From: a virus
DNA: 55,548 nucleotides
Virus genome (UHGV): UHGV-0016284
Strand: one strand, 5' to 3'
Positions 5,951 through 55,548 of the stretch are shown here, in pieces. Position 1 is the first letter of the stretch. Every line of letters begins with the position of its first letter. The position numbers were made by a program, and so were the translations under genes. Below the pieces are notes generated by a model. It made no database searches. It was not told where the DNA came from and saw nothing but the letters and a program-made list of their open reading frames with translations.

Positions 5951-5952
5951 AC

Positions 5953-5984
5953 AAAAACCCCGCTTCGCGCGGGGTTTTCTTTTA
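5953..5984. terminator. bidirectional rho-independent terminator between J and the antisense lipoprotein gene
   Basis: Hairpin ccccgc-ttcgc-gcgggg followed by ttttctttt on the plus strand and preceded by an A-run (T-run on the minus strand). Confidence 0.7.
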
Positions 5985-6230
5985 GTAGTTAGCTACACAG
6001 TTAGAAGGGCTACCGATGCGGCGCATGTTGTGATCGAGTTCATGACACCATTGACCAGTATAAGGCAGTTTTTCAGTGTCATAGACAAGATGACCTTCAC
6101 CATCATAGACAACATCTTGTGGAATTACTCCGCTATTCGGCAGGTTATGCAATGCGGCCTCTTTGTCAACAGCGCAACCAGTAAGAGCTACAGCCGCAGC
6201 GAACAAAACCACTTTGAACATGTTTTTCAT
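5982..6230 (-). CDS. small lipoprotein (signal peptide plus lipobox LTGC), antisense moron next to J
   Basis: MKNMFKVVLFAAAVALTGC...: hydrophobic signal peptide with L-T-G-C lipobox; 82 aa with two further Cys; AGGA ribosome-binding site 8 nt upstream. Confidence 0.65.
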   Translation of the reverse strand: MKNMFKVVLFAAAVALTGCAVDKEAALHNLPNSGVIPQDVVYDGEGHLVYDTEKLPYTGQWCHELDHNMRRIGSPSNCVANY

Positions 6231-6339
6231 TTTTAATCCTCATTCTCGTTCGTTCATCCGGTTCATCCGGTGGCTTAAATATCAGACAAAAGCACATTTC
6301 GTATATTGATATAAATCAACAAATACATTTTGTGTAAGC

Positions 6340-6373
6340 AGAAAATGCAACACAGATCACAAAATGGTAGAAT
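6340..6373 (+). promoter_or_regulatory. candidate extended -10 promoter for the side tail fibre gene
   Basis: TGgTAGAAT at 6365-6373 (TGn plus near-consensus -10); AT-rich upstream; GGAG ribosome-binding site before the ATG at 6407. Confidence 0.3.
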
Positions 6374-6406
6374 TATTCCGTTAATTAACAAAATGGAGTC
6401 ATCGAG

Positions 6407-9400
6407 ATGATTTACACAACTGGAACAATTGCCATCAATGGCAATACTGTTACAGGCACGGGCACAAACTTCTCCGCGCCGCTTTCTCTCATTCGTGTAG
6501 GCTGCACGCTCATTGCTGTTGGCAATCCGGTACAGATCTTTACCATCACAGAAATTAAAAGCGGCACTGAACTGTCAGTGACGCCAGCGGCTAACCCTGC
6601 AATCCCTGCCGGGACAAAATTCAGCATCCTGCTATCTGACTCGATCTCAGTTGATGGGCTTGCTCAGGACGTAGCTGAAACCCTGCGTTACTACCAGGGC
6701 AAGGAAACAGAGATCGCCGCCGCTGTCGAGTGGTGGGAAGATTTTGGCGGTGATGGTCAGGTGGATCAGCTTCTTGCCAACATTCGCGCAGAAACAGCGA
6801 AATCAACCGCTAACGCTCAAAAAACAGAATCTGACAAAAACGCAGCAGAAGCATCAAAAACAGCGGCTGCAAAATCTGCCACGGCAGCAAAAACATCAGA
6901 AACTAACGCAAAGAAAAGCGAGACAGCAGCAAAGACAAGCGAAACCAACGCCAAAACATCAGAGAACAGGGCGCAAGAATATCTGAATCAAATGGGAAGG
7001 CTTACCAGCCCAATGGTTCAATGCGATTGGCCCGTTACAACTGTTGCGACTGACGCTTACGTTAAGATAGCTAAAATTACCAACCCGGGTGGCACCCCCT
7101 GCCACATAACACTAATGATCACTAATGCCGGTAACTACGGGAAAAGTTACGGAAACATTGATTTTGTCGAGATCTCCGCTCGCAATTTTCCCAATGAACT
7201 GAACGCCGACAATGTATCTAGATACTTAAGTATCCGCCGCTTAGGTTCACCGAATCTGGCAACTGATAATCAGATGAGTTATGGGCTTGTTAAGGGCGAT
7301 AACTTTTTTGAGGTCTGGTGTTGTCAGCGAGCATTTACCACAAGCGCAAAGGTCGCTGTACTGGCACAGACTAATGAAAACGTGGAATTATACATTCCTG
7401 AAGGATTCGTTAGACAAGACAACGCACCATCAGGATTTATTGAAAGCCCAGCAGCAAGGATTTACGACCAGGTAAACAAGCCGACTAAAGCAGATTTAGG
7501 TCTTTCTAATGCTATGCTTACAGGCGCTTTCGGTCTTGGCGGTAGCGGTATACCATCAGACGGCAAGATGAGCGATGTAGAACTATTAAAAGCTCTTCGT
7601 GACAAAGGTGGTCATTTCTGGCGTGCTGATAAGCCAGCCGGAAGCACTGCGACCCATTATACCCACGGCGCTGGTATATTCTCTCGGTGTGGCGATACGT
7701 GGGCGGCGTTCAACGTCGAATACGGAACAGGTAGAGTCAAGGTTTACGCTGGTAACGATAATGGACTTAACCAGGGGAATTACTCCCTCAATGAACTATA
7801 CGGAACCCGAAATAAGCCGTCGAAATCGGATGTTGGACTCAGCAACGTAACTAACGATGCGCAGGTGAAAAAATCCGGCGATATTATGTTTGGCGACCTG
7901 GCGATCAAAAAAAGTATACCGTCAGTCTTTCTGCGGTCAGACGATGGAGCCGCCCATGTATGGTTCCAAAACGGGGATCAGTCCGAACGCGGCGTTATTT
8001 ATGCGCCTACAAATACTGATACGCTTGGCGAAGTTCACATCAGGGCTAAAACCGCAAAAGGTGAGACAAAAGGTGATTTTATTGTTCGCCACGACGGTAT
8101 GATTTCAGCCAAAGAGGCAAAAATAGCTTACAAAATCAGCGGAGCCACCGCAGAGCTTGCAAACGCATCAACTAACGTCGCTGATACTACGTTAAAAATC
8201 AGCGGCCCACAGCATACGCCTTTAGTTTTAACTCGCAGTGGAGCAATTAAAAACTTATCTATTGGGTTTAAGGTTGATGATGTTAACCAAAAATACTTGG
8301 GCGTAGCTGGTGACGGTGATTTGTATTTTGGTGATTCTTCTGACCACTCAAAAAACAGCAAAGTAATTACACAAGCAAAACTCGATAGCGGGGTAACGGT
8401 AGGCGGCAAAACAACCTTTTCCGACCTTGCCACATTTAACGCAGGTATGGCGGGATCTATCGAGCCGGAAGCCATTGACGGCCGGACTATTGATTTAAAC
8501 GACTTGATTATTGCTAATACAGAAGCTGGATCCGTTAAATACTATCAATGCAAAACTGTCGCAGGTGGTGCAAATATTACCAATAAGCCTGACGGCGTAA
8601 ACGGTAACTTTTTACTCCGTGTAGAGTCGACTCGTAAGACTACGGGTTCAGATTATGCAAACTTGCAAACGCTGATTGGCAGCGACACAAAACGCATATA
8701 CGTTCGCTTTGTTGTCAATGGAAGTTGGACAGTGTGGAGTCAGGTTGTTGTTTCAGGATGGAATCAGGATGTAACCGTCAGGTCGTTAGCCACACAAAAT
8801 GTTATTCTTGGTAATGTTACTCTTCGAGGGATAAACAAGGATGAAGGGGCGGGGATAGGTGTTGTTTTTGATGGTTCTAACTCTACCGAAAACACCTTCG
8901 GAATAGTTAATACTGGTGGTGGTTCGGCTGTTTTTCACAATTATGCTAAACCGGCTGATTCATCCGCTGTTAATACTGGCGTTCTGATAGGTGGTTATGG
9001 ATCAAGGCCGTGGACAGGCAGCACCTATACAGAGCACAGTAATGTATCTCAACACTTTCTCATGGATGGTGTAGCTTCTGCAACTAACCACGGTGGTTGG
9101 TTCCGTTTGTTAACCACACCATTAAATGCAACCATAGACAAACGTAGACAGACATTTGCTACGAGCAATAATGGCGACCTTTATATAGGTTACGATGTAC
9201 CTATGGGGCTGTACAAGCTAGATACTGCAAATTACAACGGTTTAGACATATTAAACGGTCGCGGCCTTAAGCAAGTAAATAACTCGGTTAATGAAATAGC
9301 CTTAATCACTCCACGAAATGGATCGGCAACCTCTTTAAATTTCAGAGGTGTTGCTTTTGATGGCACAATGACCGGGACTAAGGGTGCAACTCAGAAGGGC

Positions 9401-10066
9401 GATAACTTGTGGTTATCTTTTGCAGGCCACGATGGTGTAAAATTCACTGGGGCAGCAGCTGGTATCAGAATTCAGGCTTCAACTGGTTGGGGCACGACAT
9501 CAACTCAATGCGGGATAACATTTGCAACAACTGCTCAAGGGAGCACAACAAGAGTTGATAGATGGTCTATAACAAGTGATGGCACTCTATCACCTGCACA
9601 AGATAATACTTACGCAATTGGTAGCGCTGTTTCCCGTGCTACGTCAATCTTTGCTACTAATGGTGCAATACAGACGTCAGATGCAAGAATGAAAACAGAT
9701 GTCCGAAAAATGTCGGACGCGGAACTTTCAGCCGCTAAAGATATAGCCAGGGAGTTTGGCTTCTTCCAGTGGATTGAAAGAGTTAAAACGGAGGGTGAGT
9801 CAGCCAGGTGGCATACAGGTATAACGGCCCAGCGTGTTATTAGCATTATGGAATCACACGGATTAAACCCGATGGCGTATGGATTTGTTTGCTATGATTC
9901 CTGGGAAGAACAGGAGGTTGTATCTGTGGACCCAGATAATCAATCCAGGACTATCACAAAAATAGAAGCGGGGGATAGATATAGCTTAAGATATGAAGAA
10001 CTTAGCATTTTTATAGCCAGAGGGTTAGAACAGAGGATTTCGGAGCTGGAGGAAAAACTTTTGTAA
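6407..10066 (+). CDS. side tail fibre: Stf-like N-terminus, C-terminal S74-type intramolecular chaperone (autoproteolytic) domain
   Basis: N-terminal AAKTSETNAKKSETAAKTSETNAKTSE repeats as in lambda Stf-type fibres; Gly-rich beta region; C-terminus ...TSDARMKTDVRKMSDAELSAAKDIAREFGFFQW... resembles the Ser/Lys self-cleaving chaperone of endosialidase-type fibres. Confidence 0.8.
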   Translation: MIYTTGTIAINGNTVTGTGTNFSAPLSLIRVGCTLIAVGNPVQIFTITEIKSGTELSVTPAANPAIPAGTKFSILLSDSISVDGLAQDVAETLRYYQGKETEIAAAVEWWEDFGGDGQVDQLLANIRAETAKSTANAQKTESDKNAAEASKTAAAKSATAAKTSETNAKKSETAAKTSETNAKTSENRAQEYLNQMGRLTSPMVQCDWPVTTVATDAYVKIAKITNPGGTPCHITLMITNAGNYGKSYGNIDFVEISARNFPNELNADNVSRYLSIRRLGSPNLATDNQMSYGLVKGDNFFEVWCCQRAFTTSAKVAVLAQTNENVELYIPEGFVRQDNAPSGFIESPAARIYDQVNKPTKADLGLSNAMLTGAFGLGGSGIPSDGKMSDVELLKALRDKGGHFWRADKPAGSTATHYTHGAGIFSRCGDTWAAFNVEYGTGRVKVYAGNDNGLNQGNYSLNELYGTRNKPSKSDVGLSNVTNDAQVKKSGDIMFGDLAIKKSIPSVFLRSDDGAAHVWFQNGDQSERGVIYAPTNTDTLGEVHIRAKTAKGETKGDFIVRHDGMISAKEAKIAYKISGATAELANASTNVADTTLKISGPQHTPLVLTRSGAIKNLSIGFKVDDVNQKYLGVAGDGDLYFGDSSDHSKNSKVITQAKLDSGVTVGGKTTFSDLATFNAGMAGSIEPEAIDGRTIDLNDLIIANTEAGSVKYYQCKTVAGGANITNKPDGVNGNFLLRVESTRKTTGSDYANLQTLIGSDTKRIYVRFVVNGSWTVWSQVVVSGWNQDVTVRSLATQNVILGNVTLRGINKDEGAGIGVVFDGSNSTENTFGIVNTGGGSAVFHNYAKPADSSAVNTGVLIGGYGSRPWTGSTYTEHSNVSQHFLMDGVASATNHGGWFRLLTTPLNATIDKRRQTFATSNNGDLYIGYDVPMGLYKLDTANYNGLDILNGRGLKQVNNSVNEIALITPRNGSATSLNFRGVAFDGTMTGTKGATQKGDNLWLSFAGHDGVKFTGAAAGIRIQASTGWGTTSTQCGITFATTAQGSTTRVDRWSITSDGTLSPAQDNTYAIGSAVSRATSIFATNGAIQTSDARMKTDVRKMSDAELSAAKDIAREFGFFQWIERVKTEGESARWHTGITAQRVISIMESHGLNPMAYGFVCYDSWEEQEVVSVDPDNQSRTITKIEAGDRYSLRYEELSIFIARGLEQRISELEEKLL

Positions 10067-21163: not shown

Positions 21164-21380
21164 TCTTGTGTCTCCTATGGTTAGAGTGAACGCGCGGGCG
21201 GGCATCCCATTAGCATTAGATAGCAGTGACTGACCGCTCAACAGATCCCGCCGTTGCGTGATATTTGTTTTTCGCTTCGCAGCGACACCGGATTTTTAAA
21301 GAGCTTAAGTGGTTGGCCTTTTGTGCTTTCCGTTATCTTTTTTCTTGCATCATTGCAACTATGGCCTTACCTTGTTTGCA

Positions 21381-21425
21381 AGTTTACAGAATGGCGTTGA
21401 CAGGTCAAGGCTTTAAAAATACGTT
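21381..21425. promoter_or_regulatory. divergent overlapping promoters with palindromic -35 region (immunity-region control)
   Basis: Plus strand: TTGACA (21397-21402), 17-bp spacer, TACGTT. Minus strand: TTGACC (complement of 21403-21408), 16-bp spacer, TAAACT (complement of 21381-21386). The two -35 elements form the palindrome TTGACAGGTCAA. Confidence 0.4.
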
Positions 21426-21467: not shown

Positions 21468-22115
21468 ATGAAAACAAAATGGTATGACTTAGCAAAACAA
21501 CTCATGCGGGCGCAGGGCATGAGCCAGGATTCATTGGCTGATCTCATGGGGATAACCAAAGGTGGCCTTTCGCACTGGCTGAACGGTCGCCGTGAGCCAA
21601 ATCTTGAAGATATTGCGCGGATTATGCGGGCGCTTGGGCGTCGGCAGTTTACTGTCACACATGACGGGATGGTTATCGATGATTCTGTTTCTAACACTTT
21701 ACCGGGAGCGCCACCGCGTGATTTAGGCAGTTACCCGGTTGTTGACTGGAAGGATGTAGCAAACAATATGGAAGGCATACGCCGATCAACATTGCCACAT
21801 GTTACTACTAACGTTATTTGTTCGGATGATAGTTATTGGCTGGTAGCTAAAGGTGAATCAATGAACGCACCGCAGGGGTTAAGCATCCCTGCCGGTACTA
21901 TGATACTTATTGACCCGCACGCGCCAGCTATTGATGGTAAACTGGTTATAGCTCAACTCGAAGAAGGGCAAATACCGACGTTTAAACAATTGATTATTGA
22001 TGGAGGCCGAAAACTTTTGCGTTCACTGAATCCGTTGTATCCGCCGATCCCTATGAATCCAGAATCAAAAATCATTGGCGTGGTTGTTGATGCGAAGATC
22101 GTAAACCTGCCATAA
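21468..22115 (+). CDS. cI-like repressor (HTH_XRE N-terminus, LexA/S24 autopeptidase C-terminus)
   Basis: N-terminal HTH (MSQDSLADLMGITKGGLSHWLNGRREP); C-terminal S24 fold with GESM (Ser nucleophile) and downstream Lys (TFKQL). Confidence 0.8.
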   Translation: MKTKWYDLAKQLMRAQGMSQDSLADLMGITKGGLSHWLNGRREPNLEDIARIMRALGRRQFTVTHDGMVIDDSVSNTLPGAPPRDLGSYPVVDWKDVANNMEGIRRSTLPHVTTNVICSDDSYWLVAKGESMNAPQGLSIPAGTMILIDPHAPAIDGKLVIAQLEEGQIPTFKQLIIDGGRKLLRSLNPLYPPIPMNPESKIIGVVVDAKIVNLP

Positions 22116-22148: not shown

Positions 22149-22239
22149 CGAAAAAACACCAAAACGTAAACAGAAAACGCTATTTATTGTTTAAATATCA
22201 ATAGTATATAAAATATTTTAAAAAAGTATACAAAATGGA

Positions 22240-22268
22240 TTGACTCGGTGTTTTACGGGGCGTATATT
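22240..22268 (+). promoter_or_regulatory. strong sigma70-type promoter for the rightward operon
   Basis: TTGACT (22240-22245), 17-bp spacer, TATATT (22263-22268). Confidence 0.55.
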
Positions 22269-22312
22269 GCGAGTCAAAGGAGGTAGCAAGGCAGGGAAAG
22301 GGAAGGTTATTT

Positions 22313-22349
22313 GCTCTTTAACAATCTGGTCAGCCGCTGGAAGTGCGGC
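22313..22349 (+). promoter_or_regulatory. nut-like site: boxA-like sequence plus boxB-like hairpin
   Basis: GCTCTTTAA (22313-22321) resembles boxA (CGCTCTTA); hairpin GCCGC-tggaagt-GCGGC at 22333-22349 resembles boxB. Confidence 0.35.
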
Positions 22350-22406
22350 AATTAACGAAGATGATTTTTTTATTAAGTATCATCAAGGATATACGGAGAT
22401 CAGATT

Positions 22407-29185: not shown

Positions 29186-29286
29186 AACAAGCCACCGCCG
29201 CGCGGCTTCGCCCGTGCTGTATTCCTGGCTAACGACCGGGCCATCACGCGGACTACGCTTAACCGCGTTTTACCGGACTAAAGTTT

Positions 29287-29359
29287 ACAAAATGGCGTCA
29301 TTGCGTGATATGGATCACATAATGGCGCTTTTCGCCTTGTTCTGGTGTATCCATTTTGT
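29287..29359. promoter_or_regulatory. nested inverted repeats (TTTACAAAATGG ... GTGATatggATCAC ... CCATTTTGTA)
   Basis: ACAAAATGG at 29287-29295 and its reverse complement at 29351-29359 flank the palindrome gtgatatggatcac; intergenic between the HNH gene and the next ORFs. Confidence 0.3.
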
Positions 29360-29440
29360 ATACTTCAAGCAAACAAAATGCTCTTTAAAAATCCGGCAGC
29401 GCTGAAATGCGTAGAAATCACCTGAAAATGAGAGGGCATT

Positions 29441-47968: not shown

Positions 47969-48445
47969 ATGTCTCAGACTTGCGAAAATGGCTCATTTAC
48001 AGGCCGTGACGTTGCTGTATTCTTTGCTATCGCTTGCCCTAATGCGAAACCTAGTAAAGAAGCATATAAAGCGTTAGGCATGATGCGCGGCAAAACGCTT
48101 TCCGTAGAATGGGAAACCGCAGACGCCACCGCTGATAAATCCGCCGACTATACCAAAGAATCCCTGGTCACTTACAAATCTGTTTCTTTCTCCGGCGACG
48201 GCGTATCACGTAGTGATGCTCTACACAACCAGAAAGAACTAAAGCGTCATGTAATGTCACCGGGCACTGCTACCGGAAATCAGCCATACGTGTGGCTAAA
48301 AATCGTCACCCCCACCGATGTGACTGAGGGTCCATTCCTTTGCACGTCTTTCGAAGAAGAAGCGCCGCACGATGATGTGACAACCTGGTCCATTGAGTGC
48401 GAAAGCGCGGGCCAGGTAACTGTAACCGATCCGGTTGCTGCATAA
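47969..48445 (+). CDS. major tail (tube) protein
   Basis: 158-aa protein directly upstream of the tail chaperone and tape measure; followed by a hairpin. Confidence 0.6.
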   Translation: MSQTCENGSFTGRDVAVFFAIACPNAKPSKEAYKALGMMRGKTLSVEWETADATADKSADYTKESLVTYKSVSFSGDGVSRSDALHNQKELKRHVMSPGTATGNQPYVWLKIVTPTDVTEGPFLCTSFEEEAPHDDVTTWSIECESAGQVTVTDPVAA

Positions 48446-48452
48446 ACAATAA

Positions 48453-48476
48453 AGGGGCTGTCTAGCCCCTTCCTTT
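48453..48476 (+). terminator. hairpin (attenuator/terminator) after the major tail gene
   Basis: ggggct-gtct-agcccc followed by ttccttttagg; the T-run is weak. Confidence 0.45.
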
Positions 48477-48489
48477 TAGGGTGAATACT

Positions 48490-49170
48490 ATGATCCATGT
48501 TCGTACAGGACAATTTGCGGCTGTGGTGAACGGTAAGCGCTATGAATTTAATCCTTGCTTTGCTGCGATGGCTAAAATCGGCAACGATAGTGAGCTTGTC
48601 GAATATTTCGCACTTATCCACGGCAGCAAATACCCTTCACGATTACCTACAGATCCAGACCTCCGCAATCGCATTATGGCGCGGTGTTATGGTGAGATAG
48701 TGCAAACGTCTATACACATCCTGAAATGTTGCTCAGACGACGAAACAGGCCCGTTATTGGGCGAATGCTGGTTTACTCCTTCAGGTAAATTAAGGTTAAG
48801 GCCCGGAATAATGCCAGTTGATGATGTTATTACGCTGGCGCAACACTGCATGTACCACGGTTTAATTGGTGACGGCCCTGAAGAGGTCGCAAGCGAGAGG
48901 CGGGAAGGTGAATACAAACCAACGTTCGACATACTGGAGTTTGTTTATTCTGCCGTTGCTCACCTGGGGTTATCAGAATCAGAAGCGTGGAATATGACAA
49001 TGACCGGATATAGGGCCGCTGTGCGTGCTAAAACGCCGCCAGAAGCAAGAAACAAACAAAAACGACCAGATGTATTACTGGATAAAAAGGCTTATGACGA
49101 TGGAATGAGGGAGGCTATGGAGATACTAAAAAGAATGGAAAATAGCGAGCAAGAAAAAGCCCGGGATTAG
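48490..49170 (+). CDS. tail assembly chaperone
   Basis: Position between major tail and tape measure; AGGGTGA ribosome-binding site before ATG 48490. No frameshift site could be assessed. Confidence 0.55.
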   Translation: MIHVRTGQFAAVVNGKRYEFNPCFAAMAKIGNDSELVEYFALIHGSKYPSRLPTDPDLRNRIMARCYGEIVQTSIHILKCCSDDETGPLLGECWFTPSGKLRLRPGIMPVDDVITLAQHCMYHGLIGDGPEEVASERREGEYKPTFDILEFVYSAVAHLGLSESEAWNMTMTGYRAAVRAKTPPEARNKQKRPDVLLDKKAYDDGMREAMEILKRMENSEQEKARD

Positions 49171-49191
49171 CCGGGCCTCTAAAATTCTGTG

Positions 49192-49551
49192 TTAGTTGAA
49201 ATACGCATCAACTCTGTGGGCCACGTTTACACCATAAGACTCGCCATCATTAAACGCATTTAGTGACGCTTTATTGTTTTTTGCCGCCTCTTTTAATCCA
49301 TTGTACTTGCTATTAAGATCTTTCCATTCAGCGGTTTTTTCTAATACTGGCTTCATTGCGTAATGAATACAGCCAACGTTAAATGGCATTTCCAGATCAC
49401 CATTACCGTCACCATGCTTTATATCGTACAACTGAGCATTATGCGCACATTCACGAAGTATGTATTTTGCGGACGGAGAGTGCTCAGCATTAGCATTAAG
49501 CGCAACTCCTGCAAGTACCGCCACGATTAAGATTTTTGCCAGACTTTTCAT
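49192..49551 (-). CDS. secreted/periplasmic protein (Sec signal peptide), antisense moron
   Basis: MKSLAKILIVAVLAGVALNANA then EHSP...: classic signal peptide with AxA cleavage site; mature ~97 aa with 2 Cys; GGGGTGA ribosome-binding site. Confidence 0.6.
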   Translation of the reverse strand: MKSLAKILIVAVLAGVALNANAEHSPSAKYILRECAHNAQLYDIKHGDGNGDLEMPFNVGCIHYAMKPVLEKTAEWKDLNSKYNGLKEAAKNNKASLNAFNDGESYGVNVAHRVDAYFN

Positions 49552-49563
49552 ATTTCACCCCGC

Positions 49564-49653
49564 TTAGTTTTTGTTTTTCAGCGCTTTTAACATTTGCTCG
49601 ATAAAGTCAGCATAGCGCTCATGTTCGTTGGGGTGGTAGTTTACGTTTTTCAT
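49564..49653 (-). CDS. small protein (29 aa) upstream of the secreted protein in the same antisense moron
   Basis: MKNVNYHPNEHERYADFIEQMLKALKNKN; AAGAGGA ribosome-binding site; 12 nt before the next start. Confidence 0.35.
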   Translation of the reverse strand: MKNVNYHPNEHERYADFIEQMLKALKNKN

Positions 49654-49729
49654 TTTCTTATCCTCTTTTGCTTCCTCCGGTCAATCCGGCCTTTTAAGTC
49701 CCTTCGCTCTATCCCTTTCCTTTGGCTTC

Positions 49730-49800
49730 TTTATACAAAATGTGTTCACTGAAGTAAATCCATTTTGTATAAAATAGAGGCATAGATCACATTTTGTATG
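49730..49800. promoter_or_regulatory. inverted/direct repeat cluster and candidate minus-strand promoter upstream of the moron (and of the tape measure gene)
   Basis: ATACAAAATGT (49733-49743), CCATTTTGTAT (49760-49770), ACATTTTGTAT (49788-49798). Minus-strand TTTACT-17-TATAAA promoter (complement of 49753-49758 and 49730-49735). Confidence 0.4.
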
Positions 49801-49810
49801 AGGTTAAATC

Positions 49811-52800
49811 ATGTCAACAAATTTAGGCACAATTTATTACGAGGTTGATGCAAAAACGGGTCAGCTTCTGACTGTTCAGCGCGAGGTAGATCGCGCAACT
49901 GGCAAAATGGAAAAGGATTTGGAGCGCGTGGATAGTGCCGCCACTCAGGCAAGTAAGTCACTGTCAAAGCTATCCTCGATTGCCAGTGCCCTGGGTGCTG
50001 CAATGGCAGCAAAAAAAATCATTGAGTATGCAAACGCCTGGCAGGAGGTGAATAACAGGCTAATCAATAGCGTTCGTGCTGGTGAATCACTGGCAGACGT
50101 TAATCAGCGTGTATTTCAGATCGCGCAAAATTCACGAAGCGATCTTGATGCTACAGCAGATCTTTACGGTAAATTAGAGCGCTCGACGCGCGACGCTGGT
50201 TTATCGACGAAAGCACTTGGTGATATGGTTGAAACCATTAACAAAACATTCCGCATTTCTGGCGCTTCTGCCGCTGAAGCAGAAGGCGGGATCCGTCAGT
50301 TGGGTCAATCCCTCGCCAAAGGTGTTTTGAATGGCGATGAATTTAACTCCGTTACAGAAAACGCCACCAGGCTGTCAGAGGGTTTGGCTAAATCACTGGG
50401 CGTATCGTCAGCGGAAATGCGCAAGATGGCAGCAGAAGGGAAAATCACCCGTGAAGCTATCATTAAAGCCCTTAAGGAAATGAAAGCGGAGGTTGATGCT
50501 GAGTTTTCTAAACTCACCCCAACTATGCAGGAGGCTTTCACTGTTGCAGGCAACAACGCAGCTAAATTTTTCGGCAGCAATTCGTCAATTATGGGCGGGA
50601 TTGGTGCTTTTAATTCGGCAGTTGTAACCCTGTCAGAAAACCTTAACGAAATAGCTACTGCATTTATTGGCATTGCCACTGTGATGGGTGGCAGAGTGGT
50701 AAATAAATTCGTAGCTGCAACAGCAGAGGTATTAACTAACGCTCAGGCGACCAGGGCACAAACGGCAGCGGCACGGCAGGCCGCTCAGAGTGAATTGGCG
50801 CTAGCTAACGCTCAGGTGGTATCAGCACGGCAATCAGTAGCGGCGGCGGCGGCAAGGTTGAGAGAGGCGCAGGCTTATGCTGCGGCAAATGCCGGAACAA
50901 AATTCGAAGTTCAGACACTGAAAGAATTGGCTGTAGCCAAAGCACAGAACACAGCGGCATCAAACGCCCTTACTGCGGCAGAGCAGCGCCTTGCTGCGGC
51001 CCACACTGCGGCGGCGGCTAATGCAGGGCTACTAAAAACAGCGTTTAGCGCTACTCTGGGTGCGATTGGTGGTATCCCTGGCGCGTTAATGCTTGCTGTT
51101 TACGGGTTGACAGCATATGTAGATCACGTAGATCAAACGGCAGAGGCAAACCGCAACCTTGCCGATTCAGTGGACGTTAGTACCGAATCACTGGAACGAA
51201 TGAGTAAGGCGGCTAAGCTGGCTGGTGCAGATAAACTACAAATATCAATGGGTCAGTTAGAGGAAGACGTTGCCAGTCTCAACAAACAGATTGACCAGGA
51301 CACGCAGGCGCTGGAACTGAATAAACAGGCACTGGAGAAAGCAGAGGAGGGGTCACGCGCTTACGCCAACCTATCGAAAGCTAATCAGGAAATCACAGCC
51401 CGCCTGACCAGGGAAGAGGCGCAGCGTGAGGATATTCTCGACCGCCTTAATCAAATGCAGCGCAAATATATTCTGCTTATGCAGGATACAGATCCGCTAA
51501 TGAAGACCGTTGCCACTTCATTGGGGTTGGTAGCGGATGCATACGGAAGAATCACCACAGAAGCAGAACGCGCAGCAGCAGCAACGCAACACGCTTCAGC
51601 AGCACTTAACGCAGATCAGCAAGAATTAATGAATCTGGCAAACCGCCGCCTGGAGCTGGCAAAACTCGACTCCAAAACAGCCAGCAGGGAAAAGGCGATT
51701 GATGGGTTTAAGCGTGAGGCTGAGAAAGCAAACCTGACCGGGGAAGCGTATGAAAAATACATGGCTACAATGACCAAAGCATACGACACCGAGCAGAAAC
51801 GCGCCGAAGCTGAAAGAAAGGCCAGTCATGGGAAAAAAACTGGCGAAAGCGAGGAGAAAAAACATCTAAAAGAGGCTGAACGCCTGCGCAAAGAGCTTGA
51901 GAAACGGGGCCAGAATGTTGCAGATAAATACAATGTAGAAGCCGCCGCGCAACGGAAATTAAAAGAGGATCAGGATGCGCTAAATGCAGCATTAAAAAGC
52001 GGCAAAATAAGCGCGGAACAATATAATAAGGCATGGAAAGAATTAATTGGAACCGAGGAACAACGCAAACGTCAGGCTAGCTGGGATAATCTGGTAAACA
52101 AAGAGCTACAACTACGCGGGCAACTAGACCCAATTCAGCAGGCGATGAATGAATGGGCGGTTCGCAAGCAGATGCTCACAGATTTAGGCGCTACAGAGCA
52201 ATATATGAGGGAGCAAGAAAAAGCGCATGAGAGGGAAATGCTATCACTTCAGTGGGAGAGGTATAAGGCGCAGTCATTGACCAACCAACTGTTAGGCGAT
52301 GCTGTTGATGCAATGAGCGGATCCGCAACTAACGCGCTTGTCGGCCTGATTAACGGTACTCAAAATTGGCAACAGGCGATCGCTAACATTGGCAATACAA
52401 TCCTTTCCTCCGTGATTGGTACGATTGTTCAAATGGGTACTGAGTGGGTCAAGCAGCAATTGATTGGTGATACAGCAAGAACTATGGCAACAGCTAAAGC
52501 AATGGGCGAGGCGGTGGCGTTAAGTTCTGCATGGTCAACCCCAGCCTACCTGGCAAGCGTGGCAACAATGGGCGGCGCAGCGACGGCGGGGTCAGCGGCG
52601 ATAGCAACCGGATTGGCTGGAGCAAAAGCGCTTGGCCTGGCTGGCGCTCGTTATAACGGCGGTGCGGTTAATGGTGGTAGCCTGTATCGCGTAGGGGAAC
52701 ACGGTAAGCCAGAGATCTTCCAATCTCGAAACGGTGAACAGTATATGATTCCTGGTGACAACGGCAGGGTAATACCAAATCGCGACATTGGTGGTGCGGG

Positions 52801-52966
52801 TGGTGGTAACGTTAGTATAAACGCACCGATTAGCGTTTACCCACAAAATGGATGGAGTGATGAGGACGCCAAAAAACTACAGCAGGATATGGAAAAGATC
52901 TGCATGGGCCTGATACACCGCGAATCATCCAGACCGGGCGGAATGCTGCAACCGCGCCGCAAATAA
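49811..52966 (+). CDS. tail tape measure protein
   Basis: 1051 aa, long Ala/Gln/Glu-rich coiled coil, Gly-rich C-terminal region; canonical position. Confidence 0.85.
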   Translation: MSTNLGTIYYEVDAKTGQLLTVQREVDRATGKMEKDLERVDSAATQASKSLSKLSSIASALGAAMAAKKIIEYANAWQEVNNRLINSVRAGESLADVNQRVFQIAQNSRSDLDATADLYGKLERSTRDAGLSTKALGDMVETINKTFRISGASAAEAEGGIRQLGQSLAKGVLNGDEFNSVTENATRLSEGLAKSLGVSSAEMRKMAAEGKITREAIIKALKEMKAEVDAEFSKLTPTMQEAFTVAGNNAAKFFGSNSSIMGGIGAFNSAVVTLSENLNEIATAFIGIATVMGGRVVNKFVAATAEVLTNAQATRAQTAAARQAAQSELALANAQVVSARQSVAAAAARLREAQAYAAANAGTKFEVQTLKELAVAKAQNTAASNALTAAEQRLAAAHTAAAANAGLLKTAFSATLGAIGGIPGALMLAVYGLTAYVDHVDQTAEANRNLADSVDVSTESLERMSKAAKLAGADKLQISMGQLEEDVASLNKQIDQDTQALELNKQALEKAEEGSRAYANLSKANQEITARLTREEAQREDILDRLNQMQRKYILLMQDTDPLMKTVATSLGLVADAYGRITTEAERAAAATQHASAALNADQQELMNLANRRLELAKLDSKTASREKAIDGFKREAEKANLTGEAYEKYMATMTKAYDTEQKRAEAERKASHGKKTGESEEKKHLKEAERLRKELEKRGQNVADKYNVEAAAQRKLKEDQDALNAALKSGKISAEQYNKAWKELIGTEEQRKRQASWDNLVNKELQLRGQLDPIQQAMNEWAVRKQMLTDLGATEQYMREQEKAHEREMLSLQWERYKAQSLTNQLLGDAVDAMSGSATNALVGLINGTQNWQQAIANIGNTILSSVIGTIVQMGTEWVKQQLIGDTARTMATAKAMGEAVALSSAWSTPAYLASVATMGGAATAGSAAIATGLAGAKALGLAGARYNGGAVNGGSLYRVGEHGKPEIFQSRNGEQYMIPGDNGRVIPNRDIGGAGGGNVSINAPISVYPQNGWSDEDAKKLQQDMEKICMGLIHRESSRPGGMLQPRRK

Positions 52967-52972
52967 TCAAAA

Positions 52973-53000
52973 CCCCGGCGCAATGCCGGGGTTATTTTTA
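52973..53000. terminator. rho-independent terminator after tape measure (probably bidirectional)
   Basis: Hairpin ccccggc-gcaat-gccgggg followed by ttattttta; same stem as the terminator at 46148. Confidence 0.7.
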
Positions 53001-53177
53001 TTCAATTTCATCATTTTTAAATTCGCCGTTTGCATAAAGCTGTAATGCGCTTATCAGTTCGTCAGCTTGCTTTTTGTCTATTACAATCATCTCGCAGTCG
53101 CTAACGATCCATAATCTTCCATCATCTTCAACACTAAGATCAATCCTTCTACATTCTTCAGTCTCGTGAATAATCAT
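52998..53177 (-). CDS. small protein (59 aa), antisense cassette gene 4
   Basis: MIIHETEECRRIDLSVEDDGRLWIVSDCEMIVIDKKQADELISALQLYANGEFKNDEIE; GAAGG ribosome-binding site. Confidence 0.4.
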   Translation of the reverse strand: MIIHETEECRRIDLSVEDDGRLWIVSDCEMIVIDKKQADELISALQLYANGEFKNDEIE

Positions 53178-53215
53178 TATAAACCTTCATCATGTTATTG
53201 ATTTCGTGAATAAAT

Positions 53216-53386
53216 TTACTCAAATCTTGTATATCCTCTTTCAATTTTCCCTCCGTGTACACTTCTGGCAAATACCGCGTCAGTATACCTGAAAAATGGG
53301 CATGTATATGTATCCCCTTTGCTATCCATATATTTTAGCACCCACGCTATGCGTTTTACGTTGCTTTTATTTGCCGGGTTTTTCAT
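53216..53386 (-). CDS. small protein (56 aa), antisense cassette gene 3
   Basis: MKNPANKSNVKRIAWVLKYMDSKGDTYTCPFFRYTDAVFARSVHGGKIERGYTRFE; GGAGGA ribosome-binding site before ATG 53386. Confidence 0.4.
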   Translation of the reverse strand: MKNPANKSNVKRIAWVLKYMDSKGDTYTCPFFRYTDAVFARSVHGGKIERGYTRFE

Positions 53387-53417
53387 TTTGTTTTCCTCCG
53401 CAACATTCAAATCCGTG

Positions 53418-53672
53418 TCACTTGTGAGCGCCTTTCACCCCACAGTGCCTGTTATATTCCAGGTGGTCAATAATTAACCACATCTTTAAATCTTCGCTGA
53501 ATAACCGCCAATCGGGGTTAATATCAAATTTATAACCGTAGCCATCGCGTAATTTTTTGGGGGTGGCCTCTTTTCTCAGGAAAGCATTTAATAAAGCCTT
53601 GCCCTTTTTGATGATCCGGTCCTGTGCGTTTTTCTGTGCTTTCAGATTTTTACCAATCGCTACCAATTTCAT
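53418..53672 (-). CDS. small protein (84 aa) with weak RelE/YafQ-like toxin resemblance, antisense cassette gene 2
   Basis: ...KKLRDGYGYKFDINPDWRLFSEDLKMWLIIDHLEYNRH: PDW-containing segment resembles YafQ (KGYRDAHVEPDWILIYKL). Unverified. Confidence 0.4.
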   Translation of the reverse strand: MKLVAIGKNLKAQKNAQDRIIKKGKALLNAFLRKEATPKKLRDGYGYKFDINPDWRLFSEDLKMWLIIDHLEYNRHCGVKGAHK

Positions 53673-53690
53673 AACACACCCCACAATCCA

Positions 53691-53846
53691 TTAGTTGACC
53701 ACTTTCAGGAAGAAATCACGGTATTCATCTTCTTTTGCATTCATCATGAATTGACCGTATTTGAATGCGTCATCAAAGCCTTTAACTATCGCCACTTCCA
53801 CCTGTTCGAATGCGTTGTTCAGCATCACAACCACATAGCGTTCCAT
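53691..53846 (-). CDS. small protein (51 aa), antisense cassette gene 1
   Basis: MERYVVVMLNNAFEQVEVAIVKGFDDAFKYGQFMMNAKEDEYRDFFLKVVN; GGGGGGAGGGG ribosome-binding site before ATG 53846. Confidence 0.4.
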   Translation of the reverse strand: MERYVVVMLNNAFEQVEVAIVKGFDDAFKYGQFMMNAKEDEYRDFFLKVVN

Positions 53847-54019
53847 ATTGCCCCTCCCCCCTTGTCGGTACTGCTTTTTCTTCTTGCTTACTATATACAT
53901 CTTGTCACGCCTTATGTGAAGCCATTTTGTAAACTGGTTATAATTCTTGTGATGAATTTCTCATTTTTCGCGTAGAAGCGCGTAAAGATGTATGCAATAT
54001 GTAACTTATAGGGGGAATC

Positions 54020-54373
54020 ATGCCAGAAGTTTTCAGATGGACGCCGCAAAGAAGCTACAGCGTGACCAGGGAACCAAATGTGTCTGTCGTTAAACTTGGT
54101 GATGGTTATGAACAGCGCCAGGCGAAAGGGATTAACACGTTGCTTGATAGTTATACCCTGGTTTTCAAAGGCAGTAGCGCGGGATGTGGTGATGGTGGAA
54201 ACGTGGCGATCCAGGCTGAAGCATTTTTGAGGGCGCGCGGCGCTGTCGATGCTTTCTACTGGACGCCTTCGATGGATGGGGTGCAAAGGCTTTTCGTTTG
54301 CCGTAGCTGGAGCATGACCAAAGACGGGCCTGTGTACACGCTAAACGCAACGTTTGAACAAGTTGTTGGCTAA
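54020..54373 (+). CDS. M: minor tail protein M (lambda M-like)
   Basis: Aligns by eye with lambda M along its length (FRWTPQ.....V.....V.KL.GDGYEQRQAKGIN..L.SYTLVF........EAFL...G....FYWTP.......F.C..WS.........ATFEQVV). Confidence 0.8.
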   Translation: MPEVFRWTPQRSYSVTREPNVSVVKLGDGYEQRQAKGINTLLDSYTLVFKGSSAGCGDGGNVAIQAEAFLRARGAVDAFYWTPSMDGVQRLFVCRSWSMTKDGPVYTLNATFEQVVG

Positions 54374-54726: not shown

Positions 54727-54975
54727 CTATAAGTTATCACGCAGATAATTAACGCCCTTATCAGTGACGAATGAATGGTTAACCTGGTTTTCATCCGTCA
54801 TGATGATGAATAACTTTTCCTGTAGGTATTTCGCTTTCGGGTACAGCGTTAAACAGACCTGGTACAGTATCCCGCGCTCAATCAGCAAATCAATAAATTC
54901 GTGCTCATGATAACCGACGAGGCGGGCGGCCTGTTTCAACGTGTACACATAGTCACCGTGATTGCTCCGCCCCAT
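54727..54975 (-). CDS. hypothetical protein (82 aa), possible DNA-binding
   Basis: YTLKQAARLVGYHEHEFIDLLIERGIL looks HTH-like. Tentative. Confidence 0.4.
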   Translation of the reverse strand: MGRSNHGDYVYTLKQAARLVGYHEHEFIDLLIERGILYQVCLTLYPKAKYLQEKLFIIMTDENQVNHSFVTDKGVNYLRDNL

Positions 54976-54984
54976 ATTACCGCC

Positions 54985-55335
54985 TTATTTATCGAAGGCT
55001 GAAAGATTATCAATACAGAAGTCTTTAGCCGCTTTTTCGTATTCGCGTTTTGCTTCTGGATCGTCAGCCGGGAAACCTTTTGCGTGTATTTCACCAGGGC
55101 AAGACTGATCCATAGAGTCTGCAAATTCAACATTGACGTTAAAGTTAATATCTTTCGGGTTCATCTCTTCCACCTTATCCGGTACTTGGACCGGAGTAAT
55201 GTCAAATTCACGAGCGCTAGACCAACAGCGCAGTAATTCACGACCTTCATCACGCGCGGCGTTGTATGTATCGAATAACCCCATGCGCTCCCATTCGCAT
55301 TTATCAGTGAACACTTCTAAGCTGTATTTTTGCAT
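54985..55335 (-). CDS. hypothetical protein (116 aa)
   Basis: Antisense ORF overlapping the upstream gene end. Confidence 0.45.
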   Translation of the reverse strand: MQKYSLEVFTDKCEWERMGLFDTYNAARDEGRELLRCWSSAREFDITPVQVPDKVEEMNPKDINFNVNVEFADSMDQSCPGEIHAKGFPADDPEAKREYEKAAKDFCIDNLSAFDK

Positions 55336-55507
55336 TTTTTGTTATAACCTCCCATTTGGCAGGTTCGATCCTGTATCCCAAAACGCGGTCATCTTCAGCA
55401 AGTAAAAGCGCGTCAGTTAGTGCCTCGCCTTCGTCTTTATACAGAGCTACAGTCATTTCCCTGCCGCCTGACAGGAATACCGTCAACCTCCACACCTTAT
55501 CAGCCAT
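55304..55507 (-). CDS. hypothetical protein (67 aa)
   Basis: GGAGGTG ribosome-binding site before ATG 55507 (track start 55525); the cassette may continue beyond the window end. Confidence 0.4.
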   Translation of the reverse strand: MADKVWRLTVFLSGGREMTVALYKDEGEALTDALLLAEDDRVLGYRIEPAKWEVITKNAKIQLRSVH

Positions 55508-55548
55508 CTCACACCTCCGCGCCATTTTGTTAACCCTGCTTCCTTTTG

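What the first reader, a model, noticed from the sequence alone, without database searches (positions are those of the whole stretch)
49192..49810. Antisense secreted-protein moron with repeat-rich promoter region between tail chaperone and tape measure
A minus-strand two-gene unit (29-aa peptide, then a 119-aa protein with a textbook Sec signal peptide ending ANA) is wedged between the tail assembly chaperone and the tape measure gene. Its upstream region holds three copies of an 11-nt element in inverted and direct orientation (49733-49743, 49760-49770, 49788-49798) overlapping a good minus-strand TTTACT-17-TATAAA promoter, which looks like an operator-controlled promoter. A periplasmic protein expressed from a prophage could be a lysogenic-conversion factor, a lysozyme or toxin inhibitor, or an exclusion factor.
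Basis: partly seen in the sequence, partly recalled or inferred. Interest (0 to 1): 0.6.

Follow-up and report, generated by a model that had tools for sequence, protein, structure and literature searches.

The report
Antisense accessory operon in phage tail genes
A small, self-contained gene unit is inserted backwards between two tail genes of an E. coli phage; it sits where the first "moron" was described, encodes a tiny conserved peptide and a protein probably exported to the periplasm, and occupies a cargo-swapping slot, but its function is untested.

Summary
Between the DUF6246 putative tail chaperone (48481-49170) and the tape measure gene (49811-52966) lies a minus-strand unit: promoter-like site, 29-aa sORF, 119-aa protein (SP119), intrinsic terminator.

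- **Both genes are real.** sORF pN/pS is 0.12; SP119 dN/dS is about 0.15.
- **SP119** has a Sec-type signal peptide. Its mature part models confidently (pLDDT 95) as a four-helix bundle with two invariant cysteines. No known fold or family matches, including the lysozyme-inhibitor families in Pfam.
- **The family is rare.** It comprises 17 protein clusters; every source-named one is from E. coli, and all 14 members whose locus was examined sit in this slot.
- **The window is an mEp021-group (mEpimmI) phage.** Distant relatives have chaperone and tape measure genes adjacent. About 55 close relatives carry mix-and-match envelope-protein cassettes here. In one pair, DNA identity breaks exactly at the signal-peptide cleavage site.
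- **Two of the three repeats are conserved.** They form the -10 and upstream element of a promoter type also found at the phage's early promoter PR and at a ParE-like antisense unit. Nothing shows they are operators.

This is the same slot as the HK97 gp15 moron. Superinfection exclusion is my best guess, and it is inferred only.

The parts
48481..49170 (+). DUF6246 / phrog_791 protein, putative tail assembly chaperone; left boundary of the slot
   Evidence: Pfam PF19759 E=9e-54 and phrog_791. It sits between the tail tube and tape measure genes. In distant relatives it directly abuts the tape measure gene.
49147..49180 (-). Intrinsic terminator of the antisense unit: a 10-bp GC-rich stem followed by UUUUUCUU
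   Evidence: RNA fold -18 kcal/mol, z=-2.8. The homologous site in mEp515 is annotated as an ARNold terminator on the same strand. On the plus strand no U-tract follows the stem.
49192..49551 (-). SP119: 119-aa precursor. Signal peptide is codons 1-22 (49486-49551), predicted cleavage ANA|EH. The mature 97-aa part models as a four-helix bundle with invariant C35 and C61.
   Evidence: ORF. dN/dS 0.14-0.23. AlphaFold pLDDT 95.1 for the modelled region, residues 24-119. Invariant residues from the family alignment.
49564..49653 (-). sORF: conserved 29-aa hydrophilic peptide MKNVNYHPNEHERYADFIEQMLKALKNKN. It is the first gene of the operon. Its stop lies 12 nt before the SP119 start, with the Shine-Dalgarno GGGGTG in between.
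   Evidence: 21 of 34 variable sites fall at codon position 3; pN/pS 0.12. The opposite-strand ORF frame has pN/pS 3.4. Present in 51 related loci. Found only in mEp021-like phages.
49654..49723 (-). Predicted 5' leader of the antisense transcript, with CCGG-N5-CCGG (49677-49689) and the Shine-Dalgarno GAGGA
   Evidence: Inferred from the promoter position. The leader is homologous to the leader of the Lpp unit at 6231-6290.
49730..49773 (-). Conserved palindromic promoter block. Repeat 1 is TTTATACAAAATG (49730-49742) and holds the minus-strand -10, TATAAA. The minus-strand -35, TTTACT, is at 49753-49758. Repeat 2 is CCATTTTGTATAAA (49760-49773) and is the element just upstream of that -35.
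   Evidence: At least 95% conserved across 45 distinct sequences. The moron-directed composite pattern is exact in 35 of the related slot loci. The same geometry occurs at PR and at 53892-53930.
49745..49773 (+). Mirror-image plus-strand promoter-like site, TTCACT-17-TATAAA, pointing at the tape measure gene
   Evidence: The -35 fits the pattern only in the window's own lineage (exact in L008 and L092; others have TTCGTT or GTCGTT), so its function is doubtful.
49785..49800 (+). Repeat 3, GATCACATTTTGTATG, immediately before the tape measure Shine-Dalgarno (GAGG, 49800-49803)
   Evidence: Only GATCACA (49785-49791) is conserved in relatives.
49811..52966 (+). Tape measure protein; right boundary of the slot
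   Evidence: PF20155 E=2e-55 and phrog_1107.

Best explanation
The region is a moron: a horizontally exchangeable, self-contained accessory operon, inserted antisense into the late tail operon of an mEp021-group (mEpimmI) coliphage between the putative tail chaperone gene and the tape measure gene.

**How it is built and expressed (inferred from sequence).**
- Transcription starts near 49723 from a sigma-70-type promoter, TTTACT-17-TATAAA.
- That promoter carries the upstream element TATACAAAATGG, which the phage also uses at its early promoter PR.
- Transcription runs leftwards and stops at the hairpin at 49147-49180.
- The mRNA encodes a 29-aa cytoplasmic peptide.
- Twelve nucleotides after that peptide's stop codon it encodes a 119-aa precursor.

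**The protein (inferred).** The precursor is exported by Sec and cleaved after ANA. It folds in the periplasm into a roughly 11-kDa four-helix bundle, probably pinned by a C35-C61 disulfide.

**The slot.** It is a cargo-exchange platform. The promoter, sORF, ribosome-binding site and sometimes the signal peptide stay constant while the downstream cargo is swapped by recombination.

**Most likely function (about 40%, inferred by analogy only).** The periplasmic protein protects the carrier cell at the envelope, most probably by superinfection exclusion. It would interfere with an incoming phage's tail or tape measure apparatus during genome injection across the periplasm.
For: **Shown**
- Layout and flanking gene identities.
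- The unit is extra DNA. Relatives with 27-41% chaperone identity have the chaperone and tape measure genes 38-121 bp apart, whereas 54 close relatives have 643-1279 bp of minus-strand cargo.
- GC is 0.40 against 0.46 and 0.50 in the flanks.
- A terminator is predicted and is annotated in mEp515.
- Both ORFs are under purifying selection.
- SP119 synonymous divergence (0.6-1.1) far exceeds that of the adjacent chaperone gene (0.1-0.33) in the same genome pairs. This indicates cassette exchange rather than local drift.
- All 14 SP119-family members whose locus was examined, down to 28% identity, lie in this same slot.
- Alternative cargos include signal-peptide proteins, lipoproteins (one with a VasI domain) and small membrane proteins, alongside a few products with no export signal, such as cyt106.
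- L037 (SP119 family) and L042 (unrelated 138-aa protein) share 87% DNA identity upstream and 92% across the signal-peptide codons. Identity drops to 44% right after the cleavage site. The mature domains are unrelated by HHalign.
- The promoter block is at least 95% conserved.
- The composite promoter pattern occurs 4 times in the window against 0 expected.

**Basis for the functional guess**
- The HK97 gp15 moron lies in the same slot and is a prophage-expressed injection blocker whose effect depends on the phage tail region (PMC3594210).
- The upstream region of this operon is homologous to that of the Lpp lipoprotein unit at 5982-6230 (score 113.5 against 69.8 +/- 7.2 for shuffles).
- Two Lpp types of this phage group (type A of mEp021/mEp515 and type C of mEp010) were shown experimentally to exclude phages (PMC11893012); which type the window's 82-aa Lpp belongs to was not checked.
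Against: - No transcription, export or phenotype data exist for this gene.
- SP119 has no homologue or structural relative of known function.
- SP119 is not related to HK97 gp15.
- Cargo type does not track receptor type. mEp021 (OmpA) and mEp010 (LamB) carry the same 138-aa cargo, so receptor masking is unlikely.
- The promoter resembles PR, an early promoter presumably silent in lysogens. Expression in lysogeny is therefore not assured.
- dN/dS of about 0.15 shows no pervasive positive selection. Only one close pair has a ratio near 1 (4 synonymous and 15 nonsynonymous changes).
- The disulfide is inferred from invariance, not measured in the model.
Confidence: 0.6

Rival explanations
1. The exported protein is a host-fitness factor unrelated to phage. 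It might be a periplasmic protectant against colicins, type VI effectors, lysozyme or other envelope stress, or a colonisation or virulence factor (lysogenic conversion in the broad sense).
For: - Many alternative cargos in the slot are envelope proteins.
- One cargo type is a lipoprotein with a type VI secretion VasI domain (PF11319, E=2e-14).
- Morons are known to encode such factors, for example Lom and Bor (PMC3594210).
Against: - No similarity to any lysozyme-inhibitor or immunity family in Pfam, NCBIfam or PADLOC.
- No similarity by fold.
- The family was found only in this one phage slot and is very rare: the window's allele is in 5 of 5426 complete E. coli genomes. That argues against a broadly useful host function.
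Confidence: 0.2
2. The unit serves the phage's own lytic cycle and is expressed early after infection or induction rather than in lysogeny. For example, it might prevent progeny from being wasted on debris or on already infected cells, or modulate the envelope before lysis.
For: - The promoter shares an 18-nt block (17 of 18 identical) and the full -35 / 17 nt / -10 geometry with the early promoter PR.
- Copies of the same element lie beside the nutR2 site.
- Its position inside the tail operon means late antisense transcription would shut it off later in the cycle.
Against: - A ParE-like unit, probably a toxin-antitoxin pair (usually a lysogen-expressed type of gene), carries the same promoter type.
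- The Lpp exclusion unit has a homologous upstream region.
- The PR block conserved between the window and mEp021 downstream of the -35 (ACGGGGCGTATATTGCGA) is absent from the moron promoter. It may therefore lack repressor control.
Confidence: 0.15
3. The repeats act at the RNA level in the late plus-strand transcript. Repeat 1 would pair alternatively with repeat 2 or repeat 3 to control tape measure translation or mRNA processing.
For: - The plus-strand RNA 49725-49815 folds into a long repeat 1-repeat 2 hairpin (-21.9 kcal/mol).
- Repeat 3 abuts the tape measure Shine-Dalgarno sequence.
Against: - Repeat 3 is not conserved.
- In my hand count from the sequence variants listed, the inner 8 pairs of the hairpin are kept in only about 4-6 of 8 positions, with no compensatory changes; the script's own tally in that call used an off-by-one register.
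- The outer arms are invariant, so they give no covariation evidence.
- The same element occurs singly at PR and at 53892-53930, where no hairpin can form.
Confidence: 0.04

Closest known systems
HK97 gp15 moron (Juhala et al. 2000; Cumby et al. 2012), the first element called a moron
   Same: - Exactly the same genomic slot, between the tail assembly chaperone gene(s) and the tape measure gene (PMC3594210; HK97 record).
- A small envelope-targeted product.
- Its own terminator.
- Extra DNA compared with relatives.
   Different: - gp15 is co-directional with the tail genes. It is a single 62-aa inner-membrane protein of the YebO family.
- Here the unit is antisense and has two genes: a cytoplasmic peptide and a soluble Sec-exported four-helix protein.
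- There is no sequence similarity.
- gp15's exclusion function was shown experimentally. This unit's function has not been tested.
Lpp exclusion lipoproteins of mEpimmI phages (gp81 of mEp021, gp116 of mEp010; PMC11893012); window copy at 5982-6230(-)
   Same: - Same phage group.
- Antisense unit inside the tail gene cluster with its own terminator.
- Homologous upstream region: GATCACA, TTAyACAAAATGkATTT, CCGGATnnACCGG, GAGGAT...ATGAAAAAC.
- Envelope-targeted product.
   Different: - Lpp is a lipoprotein (lipobox LTGC) in a different slot, between J and the side tail fibre.
- Plasmid-expressed Lpp from mEp021 and from mEp010 was shown to exclude phages; the window's own Lpp copy was not tested.
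- SP119 is a soluble periplasmic protein, preceded by an sORF, and untested.
- The paper does not mention the chaperone-tape measure slot or gp63.
Variable accessory or defence hotspots of temperate phages (for example the P2/P4 hotspots; Rousset et al. 2022, cited in PMC10884400)
   Same: A fixed position in an otherwise conserved genome that carries different, unrelated cargo genes in different isolates, exchanged by recombination in conserved flanks.
   Different: - Many cargos here are small envelope proteins rather than cytoplasmic defence systems, and no PADLOC model matched.
- The conserved flank includes a promoter, an sORF, a ribosome-binding site and, in some cases, the signal peptide itself.

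Membership tests
Moron (Hendrix/Juhala sense) | Extra DNA absent from related phages at the same position | tested here: met
   Distant relatives have the chaperone and tape measure genes 38-121 bp apart. Close relatives have 643-1279 bp of cargo.
Moron (Hendrix/Juhala sense) | Base composition different from the neighbouring genes | tested here: met
   GC is 0.40 for 49171-49810, against 0.46 (chaperone) and 0.50 (tape measure).
Moron (Hendrix/Juhala sense) | Own terminator | tested here: met
   Minus-strand hairpin plus U-tract at 49147-49180, -18 kcal/mol, z=-2.8. Annotated by ARNold in mEp515. This is a prediction only.
Moron (Hendrix/Juhala sense) | Own promoter, active in the repressed prophage | not testable with these tools
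   A conserved promoter-like site is present: TTTACT-17-TATAAA with an upstream element, exact in 35 of the related slot loci. Its activity and timing are unknown.
Sec/SPase I-exported periplasmic protein | Basic n-region, hydrophobic core of 10-15 residues, A-x-A cleavage motif, no lipobox | tested here: met
   K2 and K6; ILIVAVLAGVAL; ANA|E; no cysteine at +1. The pattern is conserved in the family. Residues 1-23 are unstructured in the model. SignalP was not run and export was not tested.
HK97 gp15 / YebO superinfection exclusion family | Sequence homology to gp15/YebO and an inner-membrane helix in the mature protein | tested here: not met
   BLASTP of gp15 against all slot ORFs gives no hit at E<=10. 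Mature SP119 is hydrophilic.
Periplasmic lysozyme inhibitors (Ivy, MliC/PliC, PliG) | Membership of those Pfam families or a matching fold | tested here: not met
   [not shown]
Type VI amidase immunity proteins (Tai4/Rap-like, all-helical periplasmic) | Profile or fold match | tested here: inconclusive
   [not shown]
[not shown]
   5-11% identity only. The family-invariant residues are C35, A39, Y42, G51, C61, A65, P68, Y83, G103, E104 and G107. H112 and R113 vary.
Operator-controlled promoter | Repeated sites overlapping the core promoter, conserved, and bound by a cognate repressor | tested here: inconclusive
   Sites overlap the -10 and lie upstream of the -35, and repeats 1 and 2 are conserved. 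The element recurs at PR, beside nutR2 and near PL. No binding protein was identified, and repeat 3 is not conserved.

The most novel reading that the evidence does not exclude
The element TATACAAAATGG / CCATTTTGTATA is the binding site of a phage (or host) regulator. It would tie the early promoter PR, the nutR2 region and several antisense accessory operons of the tail region into one regulon. In this slot two copies are arranged back to back, so the site that overlaps the -10 of one promoter sits at about -43 of the other. That would form a small bidirectional switch between accessory-gene and tail-gene transcription. In addition, the slot would be an export-ready expression platform (promoter, sORF, ribosome-binding site, signal peptide) behind which unrelated mature domains are swapped exactly at the signal-peptidase site.
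Probability: 0.15. Interest if true: 0.65.

Novelty: new variant of a known kind. Interest (0 to 1): 0.42.

Why it matters
If SP119 and its sister cargos are exclusion or envelope-protection factors, this slot is a compact natural library of small periplasmic, lipoprotein and membrane effectors. [quoted passage not shown] That would make it a ready source of new anti-phage or envelope-active proteins.

The recombination break at the signal-peptide cleavage site shows how phages can re-use an export signal for new cargo. The conserved 29-aa peptide is unannotated in RefSeq prophages and in the mEp021 record, though some GenBank phage records annotate it (mEp515_84). It adds to the list of overlooked small phage proteins.

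The shared promoter element offers a direct handle on how accessory genes inside late operons are regulated.

Tried and rejected
- **Family searches on SP119 and the sORF.** Pfam, NCBIfam and PADLOC gave nothing meaningful. PHROGs gave one weak match over the SP119 signal peptide only.
- **PDB sequence profile search.** Only chance hits.
- **Exhaustive HMMER search.** Two WD40 proteins (P0008, P0010) matched through 'FSPDGKYI' repeats. I rejected them as compositional false positives.
- **Common origin of the periplasmic cargos.** The 138-aa and 165-aa signal-peptide cargos are not remote homologues of SP119. HHalign probability is below 1% once signal peptides are removed. The earlier BLASTP E=1e-4 spans residues 1-76 at 26% identity, and its strongest stretch is the shared signal peptide.
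- **Rfam.** Nothing except a sub-threshold terminator-like hit.
- **Known host-factor sites (from memory).** I compared the repeats with consensus sites for CRP, OmpR, CpxR, IHF, DnaA and CytR. Only partial half-site matches appeared, for example TGTGATC in repeat 3. None was convincing and none was tested.
- **Ipe, the haemolysis-inducing protein of mEp021.** I considered it as the slot product and rejected it. Ipe is 72-83 aa with four in-frame starts (PMC6379469), which does not match any product of this slot.
- **Plus-strand ORF 49594-49752.** It is annotated in several GenBank relatives. I rejected it as coding because pN/pS is 3.4 in its frame.
- **CI operators.** I tried to identify them from the PL and PR regions of the window and mEp021 and could not settle them.

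Full report
**What is there**

The window is an mEp021-group (mEpimmI) coliphage. The region 48400-50400 is 96.8% identical to phage mEp515. The layout, left to right, is as follows.

- Tail tube gene at 47969-48445 (PF06199).
- A DUF6246/phrog_791 protein at 48481-49170. The label rests on position only, because Phage_TAC_6 scores just E=0.25.
- Two minus-strand ORFs: 119 aa at 49192-49551 and 29 aa at 49564-49653.
- 157 bp of non-coding DNA.
- The tape measure gene at 49811-52966 (PF20155).

A minus-strand hairpin followed by UUUUUCUU lies at about 49147-49180, just beyond the stop codon of the 119-aa gene (-18 kcal/mol, z=-2.8). The homologous site in mEp515 is annotated as a terminator. 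GC content is 0.40 for the unit, against 0.46 and 0.50 for the flanking genes.

**Both ORFs are real genes**

For the 29-aa sORF I compared 24 distinct DNA versions from related loci.

- 21 of 34 variable sites fall at codon position 3, and pN/pS is 0.12.
- The opposite-strand ORF 49594-49752 is annotated as a gene in several GenBank relatives (mEp515_85 and others). Its frame has pN/pS of 3.4, so it is not coding.

For the 119-aa gene (SP119), the results are as follows.

- dN/dS is 0.14-0.23 in comparisons with alleles that are 76-80% identical.
- One close pair has a ratio near 1, from 4 synonymous and 15 nonsynonymous changes.
- In the same genome pairs, SP119 synonymous divergence (0.6-1.1) is several times that of the adjacent chaperone gene (0.1-0.33). 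The cassette alleles are therefore older than their flanks. They have been moved in by recombination.

**The protein**

- The N-terminus is MKSLAK / ILIVAVLAGVAL / NANA|EH. That is a Sec/SPase I signal by inspection. AlphaFold leaves it unstructured.
- With 18 family sequences, the region modelled (residues 24-119) reaches pLDDT 95.1 as a four-helix bundle.
- C35 and C61 are invariant and lie on helices 1 and 2. A disulfide is likely but was not measured.
- Pfam, NCBIfam, PADLOC and PDB sequence searches gave nothing. PHROGs gave one weak match over the signal peptide only (E=0.05).
- No lysozyme-inhibitor or known immunity fold is supported.

**The family**

- A word-indexed search of 5.8 billion proteins found 4 clusters.
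- An exhaustive profile search plus a second profile search raised this to 17 clusters. Every cluster that a source names is from E. coli.
- All 14 members whose locus was examined, down to 28% identity, sit in this same slot.
- The window's allele occurs in 5 of 5426 complete E. coli genomes, always on the chromosome.

**The slot**

I fetched 77 IMG/VR loci with the chaperone protein and 7 GenBank phages.

- Relatives with 27-41% chaperone identity have the chaperone and tape measure genes 38-121 bp apart.
- 54 close relatives carry 643-1279 bp of minus-strand cargo.
- In 51 loci the cargo begins with the sORF.

| Cargo combination (read in the direction of transcription) | Loci |
|---|---|
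| 138-aa signal-peptide protein (mEp021 gp63 type) | 17 |
| 35-aa plus 100-aa membrane proteins | 9 |
| 219-aa VasI-domain lipoprotein plus 124-aa lipoprotein | 9 |
| 219-aa lipoprotein plus 106-aa protein | 7 |
| SP119-family protein alone | 4 |
| SP119-family protein plus the two membrane proteins | 2 |
| Singletons (six other combinations) | 6 |

Gene junctions throughout the operons are TAA, then a G-rich Shine-Dalgarno sequence, then ATG within about 10-13 nt.

One comparison is especially informative. L037 carries an SP119-family protein and L042 carries the unrelated 138-aa protein.

- They share 87% DNA identity upstream of the gene.
- They share 92% identity across the 22 signal-peptide codons.
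- Identity falls to 44% immediately after the cleavage site.
- The mature domains are unrelated by HHalign (probability below 1%).

So the conserved module can include the export signal, and the mature domain is the swappable part.

**The repeats and the promoter**

All three repeats exist. Across 45 distinct sequences from 58 loci, their conservation is as follows.

- TTATACAAAATG (49731-49742), CATTTTGTATAAAATAGAG (49761-49779) and GATCACA (49785-49791) are at least 95% conserved.
- The rest of repeat 3 varies.

Reading the sequence gives two promoter-like sites.

- The minus strand has TTTACT (49758-49753), 17 nt, TATAAA (49735-49730). Repeat 2 lies immediately upstream of its -35, and repeat 1 contains its -10.
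- Because the block is palindromic, the plus strand has the mirror image, TTCACT-17-TATAAA, pointing at the tape measure gene.

The composite pattern ACAAAATGK-N-TTBACW-N17-TATAWW occurs four times in the window against zero expected.

- At both sites in this slot.
- At 22230-22268, which is the early promoter upstream of nutR1 and the N-like gene. This is PR in the nomenclature of PMC11893012. It is conserved in mEp021.
- At 53892-53930, upstream of a ParE-like antisense unit.

In relatives it is the moron-directed version that is conserved. It is exact in 35 of the related slot loci, whereas the tape-measure-directed version fits only the window's lineage.

The core motif CCATTTTGTATA is enriched, with 23 sites against 7.2 +/- 2.7 expected. 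It lies mostly in non-coding DNA: 14 of 23 sites. Copies flank nutR2 and sit at the probable PL -10.

Conservation well beyond the promoter hexamers suggests that something binds there. I could not identify what. Calling the repeats operators goes beyond the evidence.

An RNA-level role in the late transcript is unlikely.

- Repeat 3 is not conserved.
- The inner hairpin pairs show no compensatory changes.
- The element works singly at the other sites.

**Comparison with what is known**

[quoted passage not shown] It is a prophage-expressed injection blocker whose effect depends on the phage tail region (PMC3594210). I confirmed its position in the HK97 record. It is co-directional with the tail genes, 62 aa long, and followed by a terminator. 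It has no similarity to any cargo in this slot.
- Within the same window, a lipoprotein gene at 5982-6230(-) lies between J and the side tail fibre, with a terminator at 5957-5980. By position and lipobox it corresponds to the Lpp exclusion lipoproteins studied in PMC11893012. Its upstream region is homologous to the one studied here.
- That paper does not mention the chaperone-tape measure slot or gp63.

**Function**

By analogy with these two cases, and because many of the cargos are envelope proteins, superinfection exclusion at the periplasmic or injection step is my best guess, at about 40%. It is entirely inferred.

Two points argue against the simplest versions of this idea.

- Cargo type does not follow receptor type, so simple receptor masking is unlikely.
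- The PR-like promoter leaves open early-lytic rather than lysogenic expression.

**Verdict**

This is a real, well-formed accessory operon of a known kind, in a classic position. It has three features not previously described.

- Antisense orientation with a conserved sORF at its head.
- A hypervariable cassette array that re-uses a promoter, ribosome-binding site and signal-peptide module.
- A promoter element shared with PR and with another antisense unit.

Interest is moderate.

Noticed in passing
window 5951-6406: A second antisense moron lies between J (206-5950) and the side tail fibre (6407-10066). It encodes an 82-aa lipoprotein (5982-6230, lipobox LTGC, phrog_12984) and has a terminator at 5957-5980. 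Its upstream region is homologous to that of the finding. By position it corresponds to the Lpp exclusion lipoproteins of PMC11893012.
   Followed up: partly
window 52998-53930: A third antisense unit lies directly after the tape measure gene, with four small minus-strand ORFs. One is a ParE-like toxin (53418-53684, PF24732). A probable antitoxin starts at M19 of ORF 53691-53900. The unit is driven by the same promoter type (ACAAAATGGCTTCACA-17-TATATA, 53892-53930).
   Followed up: partly
window 54727-55525: A fourth block of minus-strand ORFs (82, 116 and 73 aa) lies between minor tail genes and J. The 82-aa product has a KilAC/ANT antirepressor domain (PF03374, E=1e-6). The tail module of this phage is therefore interrupted by at least four antisense accessory units.
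   Followed up: no
window 22200-22350, 21287-21410, 29280-29400: Early control regions. PR-like promoter TTGACT-17-TATATT at 22240-22268 with the TATACAAAATGG element upstream. BoxA-like GCTCTTTAA at 22313 (nutR1), 21304-21287 on the minus strand (nutL) and 29381 (nutR2). An inverted pair of the motif at 29284 and 29351. A CRP-like palindrome CGTGATATGGATCACA at about 29304-29319. The CI repressor is at 21468-22115.
   Followed up: partly
L037:3626-4036 vs L042:3694-4170: Two unrelated periplasmic cargo proteins share an almost identical signal peptide (MKRLIKAAMMAVMV(C/G)LAFNANA; 92% DNA identity). Identity collapses to 44% right after the cleavage site, so the recombination junction lies at the signal-peptidase site.
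   Followed up: yes
window 49594-49752 (+) and homologues mEp515_85, mEp044_93, mEp010_98, mEp554_93, MagusPhagus CDS0038: Plus-strand ORFs annotated in GenBank relatives overlap the real minus-strand sORF and its leader. The substitution pattern (pN/pS 3.4) says they are not coding. The true sORF is unannotated in mEp021, and PGAP lists no gene at the corresponding position in the RefSeq E. coli prophages matched.
   Followed up: yes
window 48481-49170: The putative tail assembly chaperone is a 229-aa DUF6246 protein followed at once by the antisense unit. I saw no obvious overlapping -1 frame extension like lambda G/GT, but did not look for a slippery site.
   Followed up: no
window ends (55548 / 1): Tail genes run off the right end (minor tail protein at 54020-54373) and continue at the left end (J at 206-5950). 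The window is 55.5 kb, against 53-55 kb for the mEp phages. It looks like a rotated complete phage genome with no host flanks.
   Followed up: no
L012-L015, L021-L027 and others (slot cargo): A common alternative cargo is a 219-aa lipoprotein with a type VI secretion VasI domain (PF11319, E=2e-14; phrog_1848). It is paired with either a 124-aa lipoprotein that has only sub-threshold BamE similarity (phrog_18614) or a 106-aa cytoplasmic protein.
   Followed up: no
window 49677-49689 and 6258-6270: CCGG-N5-CCGG lies in the predicted 5' leaders of both the SP119 and Lpp units. The stem is invariant and the loop is variable in relatives. Its role is unknown (weak RNA hairpin or a protein site).
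   Followed up: no
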